A stretch of DNA of 57,855 nucleotides, counting the filler, from Dugesia japonica (taxonomy: Eukaryota): the NCBI GenBank assembly GCA_001938525.1. It is 6 parts of 6 records of this genome, joined end to end, with 100 filler letters (N's around TTAATTAATTAA, not from the genome) between each part and the next. Parts side by side here need not be neighbours in the genome. Positions count along the whole stretch, not along the records: positions 49,440 to 57,855 come from MQRL01625304.1; 5 more parts are not named here. One strand, 5' to 3'. Shown piece after piece: positions 13,286 through 57,855 of the stretch. The notes beneath the pieces were generated by a model. It did no database searches, had not been told where the DNA came from, and saw only the letters and a list, made by a program, of their open reading frames with translations. Numbering within the stretch: the first letter of the stretch is position 1; each line of letters opens with the position of its first letter. The translations under genes and the position numbers were made by a program.

Positions 13286-13672
13286 ATTATGAAGAAATGC
13301 TCTATGTTGTTATGAAATATGTTGTTATGCTTTATGTTTTTTAAATGAAAATGTTCTATGCTTTCATCATTTATCAAAGAAAATTTCATCGCTAATATAA
13401 TTAAAAATTGCATCATTTATCAGGTTTTATATTAGAAATTGCATCGCTAATGAGATTTTCTATTAAAAATTGAATTCGTAATGAGATTTATTTTAAAAAC
13501 TGTATAGATAAATAGATAATTTATTACAAATTGCATCGTTAACATGATTTTGTATTAAAAATTAGCAATATTTTATGTTTTTATGGAAAATATCCCAGCT
13601 AATACATTTTATAAGGAAAAGAAAATGTTTTTTAAATCATTATATTACTATTAAATTATTAAATTATTTTAG

Positions 13673-16600
13673 AACATTGCGAATTATACAACCATTACGC
13701 AAAGGCGAGCCACAATGGTTACTGCCATAGTATCATGGAAGGATACTATAGTCAATTGTTTTATGGGAAAATTATTTTGTGTCCTAATTGTAAGGTTTAC
13801 GTGACTACTTATGTTTTTATATGACAAATACGAAACTATTCTCATGTTCTAGTAAAAGTAAAAGAATTATATTAAAATCAATATTAGATAGGCAGATGGA
13901 TAGTTAGCTTTATGAAGCACCAGTAAATTAGAGAATTAAGATAGAAGAAATAACAGTTAAGGATGAACCAGTAGAAATAATTGAATATATTGTTGAAGAA
14001 ATCATCAATTTGGAATCGGAAGGGAAACATCAAATATTGTACAAGAAGTAGATGCAATCAATATTGAATCTCATGATTGGAGCAGTTTTGAAATACTTAA
14101 TAAACTTTGTAAAGAAAATATCGTGTTACATGAGCTCATCGATATGGAAGAGGAAAATAATCAAACTGGTGGATCGATTATGAATACTAAAGAAGATATC
14201 ATGTTACAACAATTTATGGATGTAGAAGAAACGGAAAATAATAATCAAGTTGGTGGATCAGCAAATAATAATAAAGTAGATTATGAAGTTATTATCGAAT
14301 TGGATTTGTATTGCTGTTATAGGATACTTAAAATAAATGTATCAAAATGGAATTGTCGTGAAATAAAGTTACCAGAAGCTATAGTCAACAAATTATTTTA
14401 GACAATAGAAGAAATGAAGCAATCTTAAATTCAATTTTTGATGCATGTTGAGTTCAAAAGGATAACAACAACTGCTGATTGATAAGAATTTGAGTTTAAA
14501 ACCTGTAGAATGTTAAATAGAGCCGTTGTATTAATTGATAATTTTATTGAAGATGGAATAAACCGATTAAATGAGAAAATAACAATAAGAAGCGAACTAG
14601 GCTCCAGTTGGATGTGGAATTGAATACTGGAAATTAATTTTAAGATCACAAAGGTTGCAGATATTTGTCGACTTTCGTGAAAAAGCTATATTCTAACACC
14701 GAAAGATTTAAAAATGAAAACGGCAATTGCAAATATCAAAAGCGATGGCAATTACTGTTTTATTTACAGTATTCTTGCTATCACCAAATAAGATCAAGTT
14801 TGAAAAAAGAATAAAAACCGAGTAACATAATATAAAAAATACATGATGGAGCTTGTATTTGATGAAGAGGATTTGCCGATGAAACTGACAGGCATACTAA
14901 AGTTCGAGAAGAATAATCCAGGACTATACATCAATGTCCTATCATGTAATCAAGAATCAGTGGTGGACGAAGAAGATGACGTAGTAATAAAACATCCAAA
15001 TTTGGATATAATACATCATTCAAAAGTGGTAGATGGAGAGAAAATATATCTATTATTACTGAAAAATAGCAAAGAATTTCATTACACCGCAGTAATAAAT
15101 CTAAATCGCCTAATAAACAGGGATAATAAAAATGAAAGTATTTGTATTCGATCAACATGGTGTCCTAACTGTCTCAACGGGTTAAAAAATAGAGTAGCTT
15201 ATGAGAAACATGAACCAATTTGTTAAAATATCCAGGCAGGTACCTGAATGTATACAATACTATCAGAGAAGAATTTAATTTTTAAGGATTATTCAAAATC
15301 TATAACACCACCTATGCGGACTTTGAGTCAGGTTTACCCTCAGACATGAAGCATTTTGAGAAACATTTACCCTTTTNNNCTGGTCTTATGTTGGTAAATA
15401 ATTTTACCAACGAAACGAAGTACAGACAGTTTTTTGGTTATGACTGTATATATCATTTCTTAAAGCCTGTGGAGGAAATAAGTGAAAACATTGTGTTTCA
15501 TTATTATAAAACGAAAGAAAAACAGAAAATTCTAATAACAAAGGATCAAGATAAAGAATTCAAAGCTGCAAAAATTTGTTATTTATGTAAGAAGAAAATA
15601 ACCGATCCCGTTCGTGACCATAACAATTTCACAGGGAAATATAGAGGAGCAGCGAACAACCAATGCAATTTAAGTAGAAAATTGTATATTTAACTACCAG
15701 TGGTCTTTCATAGTTTACAAGGATATGATTTTCATCATATTCTCAAGTATGATATTAATAATTTCAAGAATTGGACAATATCATGCAGTCCAACAACATC
15801 AAAATAATTTCTATGTTAAATTGTACGGCAAAATCAAACAACAGTTAAATTCATCTACAGCTATGAGTTCATAAATTCTTCAATGGACTCTGCTGTCAAA
15901 TCCCTAAAAGCAACACCTTTGACTACAGAGTAGTTTAAGAATCAGATTATTAACAAGTCAAAAGTGATATTTCCGCACAGTTTTGCAACGAGCTTAAAGG
16001 CTTTGGAAGAAACAAAGCAAATGCCACCAAAATGAAATGATGTTAGTAGGGAAAAATATGAGAAAGCATTATCAATGTGGGAAATATTTGGTTGTACAAA
16101 TTTGTTGGACTATATGATGTTATATTTAAAGCTGAATGTGTATTTATTAGCAGATTTTCCCCAGCAATTCCATGCAAAGTCTTTAGCACACAACAATTTG
16201 AAGCCGTTGACTTTTTTTGGAATACCTGGAATTTCATGGGCATCTGCGTTGATCTCATTAGAAAAACCAATTGAATTGCTAAAAAATAACGATATGTATA
16301 CCTTTTTCGAAGGAGGTATAAGAGGAAGGTTAACATTCGTTAACAAGCACCATGTTGCCACTAGTGAAAATGTTGACCTGTTGTATATAGATATTAATAA
16401 AATATATAGTTGGGCACTTAGTCAAAAGTTACCCTTTGCAAAGTTTGAATGGATCTATGATAGATTAGACTGGGTTTTTGAAGATTGTAAGAATGCAGAT
16501 CTAGATTCATTGCCATATGGATACACTCTAGAGTGGGACATGGTGATTCCTGCTGAAATTCATGATTATTTGAATGATTTACCGGTTGCAGCAGAACATA

Positions 16601-17576
16601 GAAGCTCTCCAGACTGTAAACTGAAGAAATTAATGTTAACGCACTACTCCAAGAACAATTACTTAGTGCACTGGAGATTGTTCCAGATATATTTAAGTTT
16701 ACGAGTTAAAGTAACAGAGGTTCATTGAGGAGTTAAATTCAGCTAGGCTTCAATATTTGAGAATTATATCAACACCAACACAATTCTCAGATCAAATTGT
16801 ATTATGGATTTGGATAAAAATTATTATAAACTGTTAAAAAACAGTTTATATAGAAAATCAGTGGAGAACCTCAAGAACAGGATTAATCTGCGCTTATGTA
16901 ATTCAGCAAAGAAACTGATTACATATACATCAAAAGCCGGATTTAAGAAAACAACAAAAGTTGATGATAATTTGATAGCGGTTTTTCTCAATAAGGACAT
17001 AGTTTGTTTAGATCGTAGGAACTACATAGGACAAACTGTACTTAACCTCTCAAAATTGAGAATGTACAAACTTCAGTTCATTGAGTTGGACAAGTACAGG
17101 AAGGAATATAATTGTAAAATTAATATTGCAGGCGGCGACACAGACAGTTTTTTTCTAGAAATAGAAAATAAGAAATTAGAAAAAATAACAGCAAGTATGG
17201 TGAGAGATCAGCTACTTGATACTTCAAATTATTTTAAAGATCATGTCATTTATAGTAAGAGTATGAACTTAGTTATAGGGAAATTCAAAGATGAGAATGA
17301 GAATTTTTTAGGCCAAAATGCTATAGCCTGCTCGGAGATAAGAACAGCATGAGAGCCAAAGGCATATCATTAAAAAAGACAGAAATATCTCACCAGTCTT
17401 AATTGACTGTTATAATGAGAACAAATCGGTCTTGGTGGAACAATTTAGAATAACCACCAAAAATCATCAATTGTACAGAATTAAGTCAAAAAATAGCACT
17501 GACTTATACAGATGATAAGCGCGTATGGGTAGGTAAAAATCACAGTGTTCGTTATGGTCATTATAGTATTAAGTAG
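13673..17576 (+). pseudogene. polB: Polinton/Maverick-type protein-primed DNA polymerase B polyprotein, copy B (degraded)
   Basis: In order: N-terminal Cys/His domain, GSSW, NYCFIYSILA, FHYTAV, YADFES, CYLC..VRDHNNFTGKYRGAA..CN, PVVFH..GYD, YLKLNVYLLAD, GGIRG, LLYIDINKIYSWA, YKLLKNSLY, GGDTDSF, GKFKDE, DDKRVW..YGHY; stop at 17574-17576. Numerous stops and frameshifts. Confidence 0.9.
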
Positions 17577-20405: not shown

Positions 20406-22242
20406 TAGTAAACTCTCTATATAAGCAACTTTCTCTAAAAGCAATTTCTATATAAGCAACGTTTTAATTCCATAAAAGCAACTATATAAATTTATGGGAT
20501 TCAATAAAAATACAATAATTCAATAATTATTATTATAAATTATACATTATTTATTATTAGTAGGCATTTACTATTAGTAGACATTATAAACTATACAAAT
20601 CCCATTCAATGGAGAAAAAGCAGAAAATTTCAATATCCTTAAAGAATAAAATGTCTAATTTAGAATATATAGATGATGTTAAGAAAGTCAAAGACATTTT
20701 TGAGCAATATGGAATTCATAAATCAAAAATTACTAAAATAAATTCTAAAAAGACACTTTGGAGACATTTTCGTCCAAAGAATATAAGAACCAAAACCTAA
20801 TCAAAAGATTAAAGCCCATAAAAACTCCTTTGTCAAAACCGAGATGTATAATTGGTTTTTAGAAATGCGGCACAATTAAAATTGAGTTTCAAATGATATG
20901 TTAAAAGTAAAAGCGCTTGATGTGAATAAATCATTAAATAGATCAGAATAGTATGCAGCTAGTGATGGATGGCTTAAAAAATTCAAAGAACGCGATGGTA
21001 TCCGTATATTGTCTGAGTTTCTAGAGAGTCTGTTCTGTATTATTGAAACCAAAATTGTTTTTCTTAAACTATTTCTACAAGATTGTGAGAGAAGCCAACT
21101 TTCAACCAGAGCATATTAATAAATGCAATGAAACTGGTGTCATTTACAAAAGTTTATATAAAAAACCAATTTCGCAAAATGTGATAAAACGGCTGCTGGT
21201 AGAAAAGCCATGAAAGAAAGAGTAACATTTATGCCTTCCACAAATGCAACAAGCTCGCATAAGCTCGATCTAATAATGATAGGTAAAGCAAAAAAACCTC
21301 GATGTTTTAAAAATATAGATTTGACATTATATTACAAGGCCTTTGAAAATGCTTGTCAAACGAGTTCTAATTTTAAAGCCTTGTACAATGAAATCTTTAT
21401 CCTTCAAGTTACTCTTCATTAACAATCAAAAAATCTCCCAATCAAGGCACTTTTATTGGTGGATAATGCATCTTGTCATGGTACAGAAATTATGTTTAAC
21501 GAGAAAAATAATTTCAAGGTGATCTAATTTCCTCCTAATGATACACCGTTGTCACAACCATTAAATCAAAGTGTTATCAAATCGCTTAAACAACTATATT
21601 GAAACTACTTGCCGCACAGGTTATAGATGATAGAATGATTTCAACACTTCACAATTTAAATTGGAAAAATGTTGCTTTCTTAATTGTTCAAGCTTAGACT
21701 GAACTCCCGCAATCGGTAATTAAAAATTCTTTTAAACATCTTTTAACTTAACAGAATCAGATTGATTCTAACTAACTTGGTCATAACGTTACCGATGAAG
21801 ATGTTCATTTGGTGAAACTATACAACTAAATTATGGACAGCAATAAATTGTGTAAAAATGAAATAATAAATGTGGAGAATGAAAGTAATGAAACATTTGT
21901 TTTTAATCCTATTGAGGAAAATGATGAAACGACAAATGACGATATTATCACCAACGAAGAAAACGTTGTTACTAATTCCATGAACATCAACGAGGTTATT
22001 AAATCTTTCAACATAGTGATAGAATTGGCATAGGAAAATGATACTCTGGTTAATGAAATTTTAGCTTTGCAACATATTAGACAAAATTTTTTACTTATAA
22101 AATATATTTAATTTGTGTTGTAATAATTATTTTGATTATTCCAACTTTTTTTCAGTTGCATTATGAAAAATTTATTTTAGAATCCTTTTTCCGTATATAT
22201 AAAAACTGGTTCACATGAGTTGCTTATATAGTGCGCTTACTG
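20406..22242 (+). mobile_element. pogo/Tigger-like DNA transposon with decayed CENP-B-like transposase
   Basis: 25-bp imperfect TIRs TAGTAAACTCTCTATATAAGCAACT (20406) and AGTTGCTTATATAGTGCGCTTACTG (22218-22242), each flanked by TA. Motifs ASDGWLKKFK, NETG, KERVT..NAT..HKL..IGKAKKPRCF, LLLVDNASCH, FPPNDTPLSQPLNQSVI. Confidence 0.9.
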
Positions 22243-33812: not shown

Positions 33813-34442
33813 CTGGTGAGCACCCAAAGCTATTCCAACTCCCATATCATATCTCCCGACTATTTCCACTAATCTAGCATATTGAGTATTGTTCAAACCG
33901 ATACCACCATATTGTTCGGGAATCTGCAAACCAAATGCACCCAAATCTCTCAAACATTCGAAGGATTTCGGTTCTATCGTTTCTAATTGGTCGTTTTTTG
34001 CTGAATTATTGACTTCCTGTTAAATAAACTTTCAGTTTCTACTACGTTTAACAAATAAATCACTTCAAAAAATTTAACTATTGGTCCTAGCATTTGATTA
34101 ACAGTTTCTTCTTGTTCAGTCGTGAGTACTAATAAAAAATAAATTAGTTACAACTTCAACAGTTTTGAACAGAATAATTAATTCAATAAATAAACACCTT
34201 TGGGATAGGGAAATAATTGACTAGTATCAACATTTCCATCAAATACTGACAGTGCAAATGACTTCGAAGACTAAATAAAAGTAAGGTGCAAAGCTAAAAA
34301 ATTTTAAAAATACTTTTATATCTGAGACATGTCTCATTACCATATAATTACTATATGAATAATTAAGAAATATTGCTTAATTAAAATGAACTAACGTAGT
34401 GCATAATTGTTTCAGAACTTTAAATCCACGAATAGCTTTCAT
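33813..34442 (-). CDS. ACADVL: Very-long-chain acyl-CoA dehydrogenase, mitochondrial; first five exons (34442-34396, 34350-34314, 34270-34198, 34128-34064, 34016-33813), 3' part absent
   Basis: Spliced frame [133 protein letters not shown] introns of 45, 43, 69 and 47 nt all keep phase. The paralogue ACAD9 is less likely but not excluded. Confidence 0.9.
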
Positions 34443-40117: not shown

Positions 40118-40275
40118 CTGGATAAGGAGTGATTTTGGTGTGGTTAACATCCCGATGATAAAATAAATTATGTATAAAACTTTGCGATGTTTTTTGTAAT
40201 TATTGATATAAATTGTTTCTTATATCTTAATGCTGTTTTATTGGAACTTTGCTATTTATTCCGTTTTTCTTAGAT

Positions 40276-51507: not shown

Positions 51508-54500
51508 CTATGTTGCATGTAATGTGTGGTGCCCATATGGTTTGCTTGTGTGCTAATCTATCCACACTCTTTTATCGTCATTATTTGTAAGTGCTAATTT
51601 TGAACTCATAAAACTATAAATCTGATGATTTATAGTTCCTATTGATTAACTAACAGTCTCTTATTTTCGTTGTAAAAATCACGATATGACTGACTCGCTT
51701 TCTTTTAATTTAATTCCTTTAGTCTTCATTGACTCCTTTCCCTAAGAAGACTATAACATTTTGGTCTAAGAAAAACACATTCAGCATATTTCTTACCTTT
51801 ATTCTCATCCTCAAATCTGCGTACAACTGAGTTCCATTCGTTACTGAATAGTGTATGACTTTCACTATAATTTGATGTGTCTAACATATTATCTTGTACC
51901 ATTAGTTCTAAAGGTTTTTCCACCTTTATATCTTTAATTTCTAAAAGGAAACTATCTGTGTCACCAGCCACTATACTAACCTCCCATTTCTGCTCTTTTC
52001 GATACTTCTCAAACTCTACGTACTGCAACTGGTACATTCTTAAATCGATTAATGTCTGTCCTATGTAATTTGATCTATCTAAGAGAACTGTTTCCTTATT
52101 TAGTATAACAGCAATCAAATCATCATCAATTTTGATTGTTTTTCTAAAATGTGATTTTGAAACATAAGTCATAAGTCTTTTAGCTGAGTTACACAACCTT
52201 AAATTTAACCTTTTCTTTAAATTTTCCACTATTTTACCATAAAGACTATTATTTAACAGCTTATAATAACTTTTATCTAAATCCGATTTACTCTCTGATC
52301 TTAATTTTGTGTTCTCATCAATGTTATTCTTATAGATATAGTCCTGATTGAATTACACAGCTCTATGTATTCTTGTAACATGTACACCTAATTGTAAGTA
52401 CATTTGTAGTAGCTTCAAGTGTACCACATAATTCTGTTTTGAATAATTTGTAAGCAATAACTTCTTCGTTTTTGATCCTTGATGACTTAGATGTTCAGCT
52501 GCTACAGGTAAATCACTCAAATATTCATGTAATTCGTGTGGAATTACTATGTCCACTTCCATAGTATAACCATAAGATAGCGAATCCAAATCCAATGTCT
52601 TACATTCTTCTAATATTGTATTCAATCCCGAATGTATCCACTCAAAGTTTTTATGGGGCAACTTTTCACTTAAGGCCCACCCATACAAGTTATTATTAAC
52701 AATATATAGAAGCTCCGTGTTTTCGTTACTTTCGACATAATGCCTGTTAATAAATGTAAGCCCTCCTCTAATTCCCCCTTTGAATATTGTATACATGTCA
52801 TTATCCGTTAATAATTCTATTGGTTCTTTAAGAGTCATCAATGCAGATGCCCATGACATACCTGGTATACCGAGAAAATTCAATGATTCCAACTTATTGT
52901 GAGCTATAGACTTGGCTCGAAATTGCTGAAAGAAATCAGCCAACAAAAAGACATCGAGCTTAAGATAAATAATCATATAATCCAGTAGGTTTTTACAATT
53001 AGTAACCTCCTACATTTCAACCGCTTTAACATATTCTTCTTGACTCACTCCATCTAGAAAAATCCCTTTTGATTTTATAATACGATCATCATTAAACTCT
53101 TCTGTTGTCAAAGGAGTAGTTTTAATTGATTGGACGGCAGCAACTAATGATGAATTAATGAACTGGTGTGAGTCAATGAATTTTATTGTTGTTTTTGATG
53201 CATGAGCAGTAAGACATAAGAACTTCTCAGTTGTTGTAGGAATACATGAGATATTCCATTCTGGGAATTGATTGAGACCCTACTTGAGAATAGGGTGGAG
53301 ATCATATCCTTTCAAATTGTGGAATACAACAGGTAATTCATATCTTATTTTTCTGCTTATGTTACACTTACTGCATGCTAGATCTATATATTTTCCTGTA
53401 AAATGATCATGGTCACGAACTGGTTGCACTATTGATTTGTTATATAAATAACAATATCTTGCCGCTTTGAATGATATTTCTTCTTATAAATTTATTTCCA
53501 TAATCATTTTGCTATTTTCCAAATAATATGGGTATACGACTTCCTTACTAATTTCTTGTTATTTTAATAAAAATTCGAAAATACAGTCTGATCCGATAAA
53601 TTGACTGTATTTGAATTCGTTAGTATAATTATTTATCAACAAAAGTCTAGCTGAAATTGGAATATGTTTTTGATGATAAATCGAATCCTTTTCTAAAACT
53701 GACTCAAAATCAGCATAAATCACGAAAGGTGGAGTCATTGTTTTCTAATAACCTTTGAATATTAATTCTTTTTCTGTCGGCATTTTGTACATAGTTGTAC
53801 CAGTTTGAATTTTGCTGCAAAATGCTTTATGTGTCTGCAAAGCAATATTATTCTTGAATCCATTTAAGCAATTTTGACACCATATTGATCGAATTTGCAC
53901 TCCATTCCTTTTTACGTCTCTATTCATAAGTCTATTTACATGCATCACTGAAGTGTAATGGTAATTTTCTTCATCTTCAAGCAACAAGAGATTAATTTTC
54001 TGCAAGTTCGGATTCTACATAACTATATCATCTTTGCGAACTGTTTTTGAGTTCCAGGAGAAAACATTGATGACATATTCTAGATTTCGCTTCTCAAATT
54101 TCGGGATATTTACCAGCTTCATAGGCATATTCAACTCATCAAATACCAACTCTGTCATATAGTCTTTATATTTTGCTACTTAATGTCGGTATTTTCTAAT
54201 TTCATCTTGCTTAATAACGGCAAGAATGCTATAAATAAAGCATAAATGATCACTATTTTGTACATTAACTATTGCTTTCTTCTTTTCCAAATTTTTAGGA
54301 GTAGGAATATGGCTACTTCCAGAAAGTCTACTAATATTACTAACTTTTGTAATTATAAAGTTTATTTCTAGAATACGGCTAAGAATCCAACTACTACCTA
54401 ATTCACACCTNACTACAATCTTCTCATTTAAATTTCTTATACCTTCTTGGAAAAATTTATCGCTAAGAAGGATAGCTCGATTTGATATCATACAGGTTTT

Positions 54501-55178
54501 AAAATCTACGTCTCTAATAAATTATACACTGATTCCAAATTGAATCTTTACTTCCATCAATTCTTTTAAATAATTTCCCTATTAATATTTCTGAAAATAC
54601 ACTTTCCCTACTATTTCGATGAGATACATCTAACTTAAGTACCTGATGACACCTATACAAATCTGTTTCAATAGTAGGTTCATCTAATGATCCACCAACT
54701 TGTACTCCTCTTAAAAATTCTTTCTCTTCTTCAAAGTATTTTTGGAAAGTTTTATCATCTTCATCAATTCCGCCATAATTTCATTCGTTTTCATCCAAAT
54801 AATTCTTAAAAACTATATCTTCTTTTTCATTCATTTCTACTATAGCCTTATTTTCAACATTTTCCACAGTATTACCTATTGGTTCATCAATTACTAATGG
54901 TTCTGGCCTTACTCTCTTAGTTAATGGAGCGCCTATATCAATCTCTGAAAGTAAGTCCCTTAATAATACTCGGTTTTTAATAATGCCAAATTGCTTAATA
55001 TGGTCTACATGCTCCTTATAAAAACTTTCATATTTACCTACACCTAATGTTTTGCATGTTGGACATGTGTAGTGCTTTATCCCAGAGAATTTCATACCAT
55101 AATATTTCTCCATAGTCTCATGACATTCTCCTTTGTGGACAAAACTCGCGCAATAATGTATATATTGTCTGCATGTTG
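51508..55178 (-). pseudogene. polB: Polinton/Maverick-type protein-primed DNA polymerase B polyprotein, copy F (degraded)
   Basis: Acceptor TTTTCCTTAG at 55179, then TCRQY..H.GECH..CPTCK, GSSWILSRI, NSDHLCFIYSILA, YHYTSV, PFVIYADFES, VRDHDHFTGKY, PVVFHNLKGYD, FIDSHQF, YLKLDVFLLAD, IRGG, NNLYGWA, YKLLNNSLYGK, AGDTDSF, LRPKCY, DDKRVW..PYGH; stop at 51508. Collinear with copy B. Confidence 0.92.
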
Positions 55179-55498
55179 CTAAGGAAAATAGCATATTTAT
55201 ATAAGGTAAAACATAACTGAAAACTATTAAAATGTGATATATTACTATTAAAGATTATAAAAAATATTATTATTAAAAATGTGACAATTATTATCAAAAT
55301 GAAATAAAATATCAAAGTTTTTATTGTTATGTATATTATTATGATTATCAAGGGTTAGAAAAAATTATAGTAAAGGTCAGAAAATGATGTAAAAGAAAAG
55401 AAAAGGTTAGAAAATATAATTATCTAATTGAATTTTGATTACATAATTTCTACCTACATAAAGAAATTAATAATTGTCATTAATCATCAATTTTTGAA

Positions 55499-55775
55499 AT
55501 GGTAAGCTATTTTCTTATTACATACATTTCATTTCATTTATTTTAGAATAATCAAACAGATATTTATTCTAAAATACAAAAATCAATCGACAAAGTATTG
55601 ACTGAAGACAAACTTAAGAGACAAGAAAAAAATTGAATCCAATCAAAAAGAAATGGTAGAAGATTTACTAAAAGATAATGAAAAGCTGAGGAATGATTTG
55701 CATAAGGTAATCGAAATAGCTGACAAGAGGCTGACCATAATTAGGGAATTAAAAATAAATCAATTTTATATTTAA
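55499..55775 (+). pseudogene. Small coiled-coil gene with an intron directly after the start codon (one poly-A frameshift)
   Basis: ATG 55499-55501, 45-nt intron GTAAGC..TTTTAG 55502-55546, then NNQTDIYSKIQKSIDKVLTEDKLKRQEK/IESNQKEMVEDLLKDNEKLRNDLHKVIEIADKRLTIIRELKINQFYI*, with AATAAA overlapping the stop. Confidence 0.55.
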
Positions 55776-55849
55776 TAAAAGATTTAATAATATTTTCGGA
55801 TTGATTTGACTCTTTTTTTTATAGTGGTTATTATTATTATTAGCAAAAT

Positions 55850-56115
55850 AGCAAATATTATTATTATTATTATAAAAATATTATTATTATTATCAAAATA
55901 TTATTATTATCAAAATATTATTATTATCAAAATATTATTATTATTATCAAAATATTATTATTATNNNNNNNNNNNNNNNNNNNNNNNNNNNNTATTATTA
56001 TTATCAAAATATTATTATTATTATCAAAATATTATTATTATTATCAAAATATTATTATTATCAAAATAGCAATAATTTTATTATTATCAAAATATTATTA
56101 ATATTATTATTATTA
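55850..56115. repeat. ATT-based minisatellite (ATCAAAATATTATTATT)n
   Basis: Direct observation. Confidence 0.9.
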
Positions 56116-56279
56116 TCACTATGAAAATGCAAATAATTATTATGAAAAAATATTATCAATAAAAAATGTTTAAAAAAACAAATTTTAATAAAAGTTTAAA
56201 ATAAAAATGAATAATTAAAATCTTAAAATAAAATGGAAATATATTATTATGCATTAAAAATAAATAAAAACTAACGTTT

Positions 56280-56834
56280 ATTATTTAATCCGACCATTTA
56301 CAAAGATGTAGGCATAGAAACAAGCATAAGTGTTACAGCAGCAACCGACATACGATTCACAGTCATATGAGCATTAGGCATAGTGGTTTTTGTCACATTA
56401 ATTAATTCATATTCTACAAATAATAATTATAAAATTTATAAATAAAATACAATAATTTTACTTCATTATTCTTCATCATGTTCATAATAGGTTTAATAGT
56501 TGAATTGTTAGTATTATTGTTAATTCTAAAATAGAAAATTATAATATGTTAAAATAGATAATAAATCTTACGTAATCTATCTCTTCGTTTATTTCTAATT
56601 TGAAATAATTTTAAAAGTAATTACTTTTTATTCAAACATGTGTAAATTAGTCAGCATACATACTATTAAATAATTATTTACAAATCACTATGAATGTGTA
56701 TGAATTCTAAAATACAACAACCTAATATTTTTAATTAATTTTTATTTAAAATAACGCAACGTAATAAATTAGTTGCACATGAACTGTATTGGTTTTACAT
56801 TACCAGTAAATAACAACAAATCAATTGAAAACAT
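56280..56834 (-). pseudogene. Putative multi-exon small gene between protease and polB (possible membrane protein)
   Basis: Intron-like GT-AG segments at 56461-56414 (48 nt), 56571-56526 (46 nt, GTAAG) and 56663-56595 (69 nt, GTATGT). Hydrophobic start MFSIDLLLFT and terminal VAAVTLMLVS; a continuous frame cannot be reconstructed. Confidence 0.35.
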
Positions 56835-56856
56835 AATTTTTGACTAAAAACATTTA

Positions 56857-57260
56857 TTACATACAACAATGTTGATATTTCAACCACAATAAGCAATGCG
56901 GTCCACAGGTCGTTGTAAATGAGTCTTGAAATCGGATTCTATTGAATACAATAGGCTTTAATAATCTTGATAACTGTGAGACCAACATTGGTGAATAAAA
57001 TAAACCAAATGGATCGAATACCAGTATATTTTCTGGCTTATTGTACACTGCTAACCAATGTTCTCCACCAATATTTGATGATTGGGAGTTGACGATTATA
57101 ACTCTATTAACTGGAATAAATGGGATCTTGTCTAATGGATACACCGAAAAAATCTGATCCAAGCCATTTTGTAGCAATTTGATTTATCTAAAATGAACCA
57201 TTAAAAATAAAATCAAAGTAATAATCAAAACTTACTTCATTTTGGTCAACTCTTTTTCAT
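56857..57260 (-). pseudogene. Adenain-type (adenovirus-like) cysteine protease of a Polinton-like element, with a 5' intron
   Basis: IIVNSQSSNIGGEHWLAVY..FDPFG..FQ...TTCGPHCLLWL carries the H-D-Q-C catalytic set. 5' part INQIATKWLGSDFF(G)VYPLD requires a frameshift. A 48-nt GTAAGT..TTTTAG intron at 57235-57188 follows a short ATG exon (57260-57236) that is out of frame as assembled. Confidence 0.85.
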
Positions 57261-57499
57261 GATATTGANNNNNNNNNNNNNNNNNNNNNNNNNNNNNNNN
57301 NNNNNNNNNNNNNNNNNNNNNNNNNNNNNNNNNNNNNNNNNNNNNNNNNNNNNNNNNNNNNNNNNNNNNNNNNNNNNNNNNNNNNNNNNNNNNNNNNNNN
57401 NNNNNAGGCATCTATACAATTTCAAAACATTTGATCAACAAGCTCATATAAAACCATACAAATAATAATAATAATAATATTAATAATAATAATAATAAT

Positions 57500-57740
57500 A
57501 ATAACATATAAAACCCTATAATTCTAAATAGAAACTTTGTAAAAACAATACAAGACCATATAAAACCTTATAATAACCCTATAATAACCATATAAAACTC
57601 TATTAAAATCTTATAATTACTACATAATTACCATATAATTTCCTTATAAAAAGATATATAATTACCATATAAAACTCTATGAAAGTATAATAAAAACATA
57701 TAAAACCTTATAATTGCTCTATAAAAGCCTATAAATATGT
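57500..57740. repeat. Degenerate ~10/21-bp tandem repeat (TAAAACC(A/T)TA)
   Basis: Recurrent TAAAACCTTA, TAAAACTCTA and TTACCATA units. Confidence 0.65.
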
Positions 57741-57855
57741 TTTAACGATTATCTTGAGTGAATTGTGATGGACTATAATAATAAACAATGAGCTAAATTA
57801 CTCACTAGAAGTCTAATAATTTAGTGTTCATTTCAAAGAAATTGAGGTATGTTTT

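What the first reader, a model, noticed from the sequence alone, without database searches (positions are those of the whole stretch)
51508..57260. Polinton/Maverick-like endogenous virus whose genes carry host-sized spliceosomal introns
Seen: every gene in this segment has splice signals. The adenain protease has a 48-nt GTAAGT..TTTTAG intron, the coiled-coil gene has a 45-nt intron directly after its ATG, a third gene has 46/48/69-nt intron-like segments, and polB starts at a phase-1 acceptor with no convincing start codon in the exon. These sizes match the host ACADVL introns here (43-47 and 69 nt). Known: pPolB plus adenain are core Polinton/Maverick genes, usually described as uninterrupted ORFs. 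Inference: this lineage is an intron-rich, splicing-dependent dsDNA virus/transposon that ORF-based surveys would fragment or miss. Capsid, ATPase, integrase and TIRs are not in these contigs.
Basis: partly seen in the sequence, partly recalled or inferred. Interest (0 to 1): 0.8.

Follow-up and report, generated by a model that had tools for sequence, protein, structure and literature searches.

The report
Polinton clade with conserved start introns
This is a dead copy of a virus-like jumping element (a Polinton) whose closest intact relatives keep a short intron-shaped insert just after the start of their protease gene, and often more in the front of the polymerase gene, so they likely depend on the host's splicing machinery although such elements are usually described as intron-free.

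Summary
Mostly right, with corrections. The segment is a decayed Polinton/adintovirus-like copy (polB, adenain) from a high-copy family in an AT-rich animal. Of 22 related metagenome loci, 10 carry a 37-43-nt GT-AG insert inside protease codon 2, 11 are uninterrupted and 1 is cut short. In a capsid tree of 16 of them, the 8 intron bearers form one side of a branch (97/99). Splicing gives the same N-terminal length in 10 of 10. The polB acceptor (55179) recurs in the same phase in a second copy (52% identical protein), but no donor was found. The polB body, and the relatives' capsid, penton, ATPase and integrase, are uninterrupted, so 'every gene' overstates. Introns of the coiled-coil and third genes remain unverified (no homologs). 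Three relatives have 3-5 further introns in the polB front end. Papers read call Polinton core genes intronless; this scan noted intron-bearing Polintons before on other DNA (80 notes, 13+ genomes). Verdict: new variant of a known kind.

The parts
51508..55178 (-). [quoted passage not shown]
   Evidence: PF03175 and PF02945 hits; colinear with intact L009 polB, 45% over residues 244-1218, 9 stops; 52% to the second copy; OTU-like fold seen on a model of the relatives' region
55179..55180 (-). Likely splice acceptor inside polB codon 2 (phase 1); donor and first exon not identified
   Evidence: Same AG, same phase, two codons before the conserved Cys in the second copy at 13671-13672; Met1 of L009's uninterrupted polB aligns at 55182; motif test for the region at chance level
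55499..55775 (+). Small coiled-coil accessory gene with a candidate 45-nt phase-0 intron (55502-55546) right after the ATG; frameshifted near 55635; unverified
   Evidence: GTAAGC..TTTAG with an in-frame stop inside, then a 29-aa open exon; no homolog or in the loci
56284..56720 (-). Candidate third gene with intron-like segments 56663-56595 (69 nt), 56571-56526 (46) and 56461-56414 (48); no consistent open frame in this copy; unverified
   Evidence: Sequence; regional enrichment 3 vs 1.06, 3 of 100 shuffles; no homolog among the loci
56857..57197 (-). Adenain (maturation protease) exon 2; broken by a stop near its 5' end and a frameshift near 57140
   Evidence: 60-72% identity to P0001-P0006; homologs align in frame -1 to 57140 and in frame -2 after it
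57198..57235 (-). Protease intron, 38 nt, phase 2 inside codon 2; donor intact, acceptor not intact in this copy
   Evidence: Same position and phase as 37-43-nt introns in 10 intact loci; these bounds give the 19 codons before the GVxP motif seen in 10 of 10
57236..57240 (-). Protease exon 1: start codon plus two bases
   Evidence: ATG-NA followed by a GT donor in the window and in 10 loci
13671..17570 (+). Second, diverged and decayed polB copy on another contig of the window, with the same phase-1 acceptor at its 5' end
   Evidence: blastn 65-67%, tblastx colinear including the N-terminal module, sister to copy 1 at 100/100
34017..34313 (-). Host ACADVL introns used as size reference (43, 69, 47 nt); not part of the element
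   Evidence: Open 144-aa frame when modelled; VLCAD match

Best explanation
The segment is a dead, integrated copy of a Polinton (adintovirus-like) clade whose intact members carry a short GT-AG insert inside the second codon of the protease gene, which is likely a spliceosomal intron inherited with the virus and likely removed by the host spliceosome before the protease can be made. SHOWN: position, phase and size of the insert in 10 loci; its absence in 11 more distant loci; uninterrupted capsid, penton, ATPase, integrase and polB core; further frame-restoring inserts in the polB front end (3 loci) and in accessory genes (2 loci); decay of the window copy. INFERRED: host RNA polymerase II transcribes these genes in the nucleus and the major spliceosome splices them; unspliced RNA gives no protease (no in-frame ATG before the conserved motif in 8 of 10 loci); the protease intron was gained once at the base of the clade, while polB introns came and went later. 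INFERRED, weaker (about 40%): the donor sits 4-9 nt after the capsid stop codon, so one intron could mark a capsid-protease read-through transcript as spliced without cutting the capsid ORF and without an exon junction far enough downstream to trigger nonsense-mediated decay (the 50-55-nt rule is recalled, not tested); this would help a long late transcript escape host silencing of intronless RNA.
For: Protease start ATG-NA|GT..AG|T in 10 of 22 loci (about 7 distinct lineages), introns 37-43 nt, 19 residues before GVxP in 10 of 10; 10 of 11 uninterrupted loci have ATG at -18. In-frame stops inside 6 of 6 protease introns so tested. Capsid tree: 8 intron loci against 8 intronless, one side of a branch, 97/99, 0 of 500 label shuffles as low; capsids of the intron group are 59-64% identical to L001's. 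Gene-caller products P0002, P0006, P0007, P0008 carry F/Y/I-rich extensions, as expected from reading through an intron end, while P0003 and P0014 begin with the 19-residue form. L002 polB: 5 introns give an open 888-aa frame; L003 has 4 at the same positions; L001 has 3 others, open 1222 aa. L008's phosphatase (DSPc E 4.5e-21) and an L001 accessory ORF each have one. Capsid stop 4-9 nt before the donor in 9 of 9 loci where both are held. Window polB acceptor conserved in two copies at 52% protein identity. Relatives L001 and L009 hold the full Polinton gene set.
Against: No RNA junction was seen: depth at 55105-55800 was at most 2.4 in the two raw RNA runs, 15 of 104 joints were shown and none was at a predicted site, and the protease junction lay outside the laid stretch. 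The protease tree needs 2 changes of the intron label (0% of bootstraps with 1), though it is short and has long branches. The window has no capsid gene, so it is placed in the clade only by protease and polB similarity (the polB tree has 6 rows and no intronless outgroup). Between L002 and L003 the four polB introns are as alike (0.76-0.83) as the exons (0.64-0.76), so faster intron drift is seen only for the protease (0.79 vs 0.94). L008 and L010 have another in-frame ATG. No donor found for the window's polB acceptor. The window's own protease start could also be read as an ATG at 57201 with a frameshift. The hosts of the metagenome loci are unknown, so 'host-sized' rests on 3 host introns of one organism.
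Confidence: 0.8

Rival explanations
1. The introns are real but neutral: gained during long residence in intron-rich, short-intron hosts, fixed by drift, and kept near the 5' ends because loss through cDNA removes 3' introns first. They have no role in gene control. This differs from the best reading only in the 'why'.
For: polB front-end introns vary freely: 5 in L002, 3 different ones in L001, none in the coding part of L009 and L015. They fall in the low-complexity, poorly conserved part of polB. 11 relatives do without the protease intron.
Against: The protease intron keeps its exact position and its 4-9-nt distance to the capsid stop across capsids 59-64% identical, while no intron interrupts capsid, penton, ATPase or integrase in the loci examined. 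Conservation of position is also normal for neutral introns, so this is weak.
Confidence: 0.45
2. The inserts are not spliced: they are AT-rich spacers between genes, and the protease starts at a downstream or non-ATG codon; the GT..AG ends are chance in AT-rich DNA.
For: No junction reads. Intron-like motifs arise by chance at about the observed rate in several regions; two such motifs in the second polB copy are coding by comparison with copy 1.
Against: ATG, donor, phase, acceptor and product length agree in 10 of 10 loci; five successive inserts in L002 keep one frame open with 0 stops; enrichment 4 vs 0.61, 1 of 100 shuffles.
Confidence: 0.07
3. The introns entered after integration, as introner insertions into single, possibly dying copies, as described for dinoflagellate elements.
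For: Gozashti & Corbett-Detig (PMC11957031) report introners in Maverick-Polinton-like elements, about 90% best explained as secondary insertions. The window copy is a fossil.
Against: The same intron position is shared by about 7 lineages with intact ORFs; the intron sequences are low-complexity and differ from each other (read by eye; no repeat-family search of the host genome was possible).
Confidence: 0.05

Closest known systems
Polintons/Mavericks of animals (Kapitonov & Jurka 2006, recalled; Barreat & Katzourakis 2021, PMC8097293; Widen et al., 10.1101/2022.07.12.499685)
   Same: pPolB, rve integrase, A32-like ATPase, adenain protease, double jelly-roll capsid and a putative penton in the intact relatives; mostly decayed high-copy genomic fossils.
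   Different: [quoted passage not shown] Here a core gene (protease) has a clade-wide intron and polB has lineage-specific ones. No TIR or target duplication could be shown.
Adintoviruses (Starrett et al. 2021, PMC8502044; Buck et al., 10.1101/2024.03.25.586562)
   Same: Animal association, polB with an OTU-like region, hexon-like capsid, rve integrase, adenain; a TBP-like accessory gene occurs in the relatives (PF00352).
   Different: No spliceosomal introns in the passages read. Alpha or Beta class was not settled: PF03175 passes on one window piece but not on the whole polB of L001 or L009.
Introner-bearing Maverick-Polinton-like elements of dinoflagellates (Gozashti & Corbett-Detig 2025, PMC11957031)
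   Same: Spliceosomal-type introns inside Polinton-like elements.
   Different: Those are copies of host introner transposons, mostly inserted after integration. Here one intron position is inherited across diverged elements, in an animal-associated clade.
Adenoviruses (recalled)
   Same: Nuclear dsDNA viruses with pPolB, hexon and adenain next to each other, whose mRNAs are spliced, including a short first coding exon for the polymerase (recalled, not checked).
   Different: Adenoviruses use long alternative introns from shared leaders; here the introns are about 40 nt, host-like, and sit inside the first codons.

Membership tests
Polinton/Maverick | [quoted passage not shown] | tested here: met
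   Window: PF03175 28.5 bits, decayed; intact in L001, L009, L015 with YGK and DTDS motifs seen in L009
Polinton/Maverick | Adenovirus-like cysteine protease | tested here: met
   EHW, FDP and QxxxxxxCG motifs invariant or nearly so in 14 aligned rows; PF00770 on 6 of 13 homologs
Polinton/Maverick | Retrovirus-like (rve) integrase | tested here: inconclusive
   Absent from the window (contig is cut by gaps); present in relative L001, rve E 1.2e-12
Polinton/Maverick | Packaging ATPase | tested here: inconclusive
   Absent from the window; Pox_A32 E 1.9e-6 in L001
Polinton/Maverick | Double jelly-roll major capsid and minor capsid | tested here: inconclusive
   Absent from the window. L001 capsid model (pLDDT 79.9) matches iridovirus, PBCV-1 and mavirus capsids at E 5e-16 to 5e-14. 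The penton is named by position and memory only (no Pfam hit)
Polinton/Maverick | [quoted passage not shown] | tested here: inconclusive
   No terminal inverted repeat in L001, L008, L009, L015; contigs are probably incomplete; no host genome held
Polinton/Maverick (as described in the papers read) | Core genes without introns | tested here: not met
   Protease intron in 10 of 22 loci, polB front-end introns in 3 loci; met for capsid, penton, ATPase, integrase and polB core. This is a described property, not a formal criterion
Adintovirus | OTU-like domain in the N-terminal part of PolB | tested here: inconclusive
   Model of L009 polB region (pLDDT 64, 4 sequences): residues 166-282 match many OTU structures but only at Z 4-5.2, rmsd 3.1-4.8
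Adintovirus | Hexon reciprocally recognisable by BLASTp with reference adintovirus hexons; Alpha or Beta class | not testable with these tools
Adintovirus | Animal host | tested here: inconclusive
   Window host has a VLCAD-like gene far closer to VLCAD (E 1e-24) than to bacterial enzymes and a G-alpha exon; 'animal' is my inference; hosts of the loci unknown
U2-type spliceosomal introns | GT..AG ends, removal restores the frame, position conserved | tested here: met
   24 of 24 modelled introns GT-AG, 37-53 nt, frames open; these were chosen because they restore frames, so only the shared positions are independent support
U2-type spliceosomal introns | Removal seen in RNA | tested here: inconclusive

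The most novel reading that the evidence does not exclude
A clade of active, particle-forming animal polintoviruses has made the host spliceosome a required switch in its late programme: one ancestral intron, placed between the capsid stop codon and the protease's third codon, licenses a capsid-protease transcript against host silencing of intronless RNA and gates virion maturation, while start-proximal introns do the same for the polymerase and accessory genes.
Probability: 0.2. Interest if true: 0.8.

Novelty: new variant of a known kind. Interest (0 to 1): 0.6.

Why it matters
Papers read describe Polinton core genes as intronless, and one large survey uses prokaryotic gene finders on the ground that endogenous viruses 'do not contain introns' (PMC10120064). 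A clade-wide intron in a core gene shows that this assumption fails and that introns can be inherited with the virus, not only dropped into dead copies. It gives direct sequence evidence that these elements are transcribed and processed in the host nucleus, a clean presence/absence system for studying intron gain and loss in a virus (one fixed intron, several labile ones), and a testable link between splicing and escape from silencing. Practical cost is limited: the long core ORFs are still found, but protease and polymerase N-termini are mis-called.

Tried and rejected
No host genome was held, so copies, TIRs and target duplications could not be sought. Protein searches with the polB N-terminal exon found nothing (93 candidates; 1 candidate); the coiled-coil ORF found nothing among 1.84 billion representatives (a 57-aa query with a frameshifted start is weak); the ESM Atlas gave no hit above 0.80 for the polB N-terminal module. 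IMG/VR scans with the protease and capsid gave no relative; the genome-contig scan could not run on alignment A2; phage records gave no match. Run search: no RNA holder listed. Laying X1, X16, X21, X22 on 51480-55800 showed no joint at predicted sites, at too low a depth to count. Rejected: the 48-nt protease intron (stop at once; wrong frame); introns in the polB body; two intron-like motifs in the second polB copy (coding by homology). Candidate donors 46 nt upstream of the polB acceptor in both copies have no start codon in frame before them, so none was accepted. The third gene and the coiled-coil gene had no match among the loci or elsewhere in the window. Some model coordinates were off by one or two and were rerun. 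Literature: 7 searches found no paper describing conserved spliceosomal introns in Polinton core genes; subscription papers, Repbase entries and all supplements were not seen and may hold such a note.
Full report
Setting. The window is six contigs joined by N-TTAATTAATTAA-N spacers; the finding lies in the last (49440-57855). No host genome is held. Host genes include a VLCAD-like exon (E 1e-24 to VLCAD structures) and a G-alpha exon; I infer an AT-rich animal and did not determine the species. Three host introns of 43, 69 and 47 nt give an open frame.

What is in the segment. On the minus strand 51508-55178 is a family B polymerase in pieces. It aligns in one frame with the intact polymerase of locus L009 over residues 244-1218 (45% identity, 9 stops, 44 gap positions), so its body is decayed but not interrupted by introns. 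56857-57240 is an adenain protease, 60-72% identical to its six nearest of 13 homologs. A second polB copy lies at 13673-17570 on another contig, 52% identical in protein. Capsid, penton, integrase, ATPase and TBP queries found nothing in the window. Laying DNA contigs of run X1 at 80% likeness placed 3889 records on 51480-55800, 1886 of them under 90% alike: a high-copy, diverged family.

The protease intron. A metagenome scan returned 22 loci. In 10 (L001, 2, 3, 5, 7, 8, 9, 10, 15, 18; about 7 distinct lineages, as three pairs are near-copies) the gene starts ATG plus two bases, a GT donor, 37-43 AT-rich bases, AG, then the conserved body; 8 were caught by a strict pattern, L002 and L003 have a GTAATT donor and were modelled by hand. 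The spliced reading leaves 19 residues before the GVxP motif in 10 of 10. Eleven loci are uninterrupted, 10 of them with ATG at -18; L006 is cut off. Eight of the 10 intron loci have no in-frame ATG without splicing, and 6 of 6 introns so tested hold in-frame stops. The window fits this pattern with bounds 57235-57198 (38 nt, 19 codons); its acceptor is not intact and a stop and a frameshift follow. Gene-caller proteins P0002, P0006, P0007, P0008 show F/Y/I-rich read-through extensions, and P0003 and P0014 begin with the 19-residue form; their DNA could not be seen, so they may be spliced products or intron losses.

Phylogeny. A capsid tree of 16 loci (20 had a hit; 4 with under 120 aligned residues were dropped; L003 and L006 had none) puts the 8 intron bearers on one side of a branch, 97/99, with 0 of 500 shuffles as low; the root is not fixed. 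The protease tree is less clean: 2 changes, long branches meeting, 119 columns; it groups the window with P0001-P0006 (98/95). A 6-row polB tree joins the two window copies (100/100) with L002 (95/97) but has no intronless outgroup.

Other introns. L002's polB front end has 5 introns (42-46 nt) that give an open 888-aa frame to the contig end; L003 has 4 at the same places; L001 has 3 others (45-53 nt, 1222 aa open); the coding part of L009 and L015 is uninterrupted. An L001 accessory ORF and L008's dual-specificity phosphatase have one each. All 24 modelled introns in these 10 loci are GT-AG, 37-53 nt, median 42, GC 4-22%. Against: L002/L003 polB introns are no more diverged than their exons. 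Capsids are uninterrupted in every aligned stretch, and ATPase, integrase and penton are single ORFs in L001, L008 and L009; motif counts in the core blocks of L001 and L009 are at chance.

The window's other signals. The polB acceptor at 55180-55179 has a twin at 13671-13672 in the same phase, two codons before the same Cys, and L009's Met1 aligns at 55182, so an intron inside codon 2 is likely; no donor was found. The coiled-coil gene's 45-nt segment after ATG has good ends and an in-frame stop, but no homolog and no regional enrichment (52 of 100 shuffles). The third gene's segments are modestly enriched (3 of 100) but give no consistent frame here. If all three hold, protease, polB and coiled-coil gene each have an intron within the first two codons.

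RNA. Raw RNA runs X21 and X22 gave 58 and 917 reads, nearly all under 95% alike, so other family members are transcribed or present as DNA carry-over; depth at 55105-55800 was at most 2.4, and none of the 15 joints shown (of 104) is at a predicted site. The protease junction was outside the stretch. Splicing is therefore inferred, not shown.

Identity of the relatives. L001 and L009 are 13-14 kb with A32-like ATPase, rve integrase, putative penton, capsid, protease, polB and a TBP-like gene. The capsid model (pLDDT 79.9) matches double jelly-roll capsids at E about 1e-15; the polB front region shows a weak OTU-like match (Z 4-5.2). No terminal repeats were found in four loci. Whether they are free or integrated is unknown.

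How it likely works. Host polymerase II transcription and U2-type splicing (inferred) join a two-codon first exon to the protease body; without splicing no protease is made in most members. The donor lies 4-9 nt after the capsid stop in 9 of 9 loci, whereas in intronless loci the protease ATG lies just inside the capsid's last codons. I favour, weakly, that this places a splice on a capsid-protease transcript without harming the capsid frame; introns are known to protect long transcripts from HUSH silencing in human cells (PMC8770142, abstract only), but whether this host has such a system is untested. Neutral gain and retention is about as likely for the 'why'.

What is known. PMC11957031: abstract and the first part of Results: introners in dinoflagellate elements, mostly secondary. 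Kapitonov & Jurka 2006 and Pritham 2007 are recalled only. Seven searches found no report of a conserved spliceosomal intron in a Polinton core gene; supplements were not opened. This scan's own notes list 80 findings in at least 13 genomes with the words polinton and intron (8 shown, unchecked), some sparing the capsid genes and some not, so capsid sparing is not general; a sequence look-up found no note on this family.

Verdict. Observation partly confirmed; interpretation partly supported. New variant of a known kind, interest 0.6; 0.8 that the clade's introns are real and spliced.

Noticed in passing
L024:3700-5960 (IMG/VR contig filed with a giant-virus bin): A distant Polinton-like element (capsid 25%, integrase 30% to L001) whose polB core seems cut by about four GT-AG introns, one inside the DTDS motif and one long one holding an opposite-strand ORF that looks like a dUTPase (recalled); its protease start is uninterrupted. 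A separate intron-bearing lineage.
   Followed up: partly
window 13671-17570 and 12890-13070: Second decayed polB copy; upstream of it lie two small exon-like stretches ending in a GTAAGT donor at about 13063 that could be its first exons; not tested.
   Followed up: partly
L009:13860-14105 (-), window 54950-55176 (-), L015:7100-7422 (-): A Cys/His-rich module (C..Y.C...H...CH..M..YYG...CP.C) begins polB across this clade and also starts a separate coiled-coil gene in L015; no Pfam or Atlas family found.
   Followed up: partly
L009:13130-13500 (-): The polB region before the OTU-like part folds like the little-finger domain of Y-family polymerases (best Z 8.2, rmsd 2.3, 92 residues; model pLDDT 64); may be only a common fold.
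   Followed up: partly
L001:2160-2618, L009:225-722 and 9576-10052, L008:675-1260: Accessory genes in the relatives: TBP-like (E 3e-17), ubiquitin-conjugating E2 (E 2e-12), dual-specificity phosphatase with an intron, and an ORF after the protease that looks like a DEDD exonuclease (recalled; no Pfam hit).
   Followed up: partly
L008:1-511: The contig's left end reads like a bacterial mraY fragment (recalled, not tested), so the contig may be chimeric there.
   Followed up: no
L009:14179-14124 (-): A 56-nt GT-AG segment 18 nt before the polB ATG, possibly a 5' UTR intron.
   Followed up: no
window 40231-41666: GC-richer cluster of short ORFs, two coiled-coil-like, with no passing Pfam family; it resembles the accessory blocks of L001 and may be another fragment of such an element.
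   Followed up: partly
window 44354-45206, 21162-21419, 2170-2409, 9346-9654: Decayed host transposons: DDE_3 with HTH, DDE_1, reverse transcriptase and rve pieces.
   Followed up: partly
window 55225-55312 and 50690-51000: A 46-bp tandem duplication just upstream of the polB acceptor region, and CA-rich simple repeats beyond the polB end that could be remains of a terminal repeat; neither tested.
   Followed up: no
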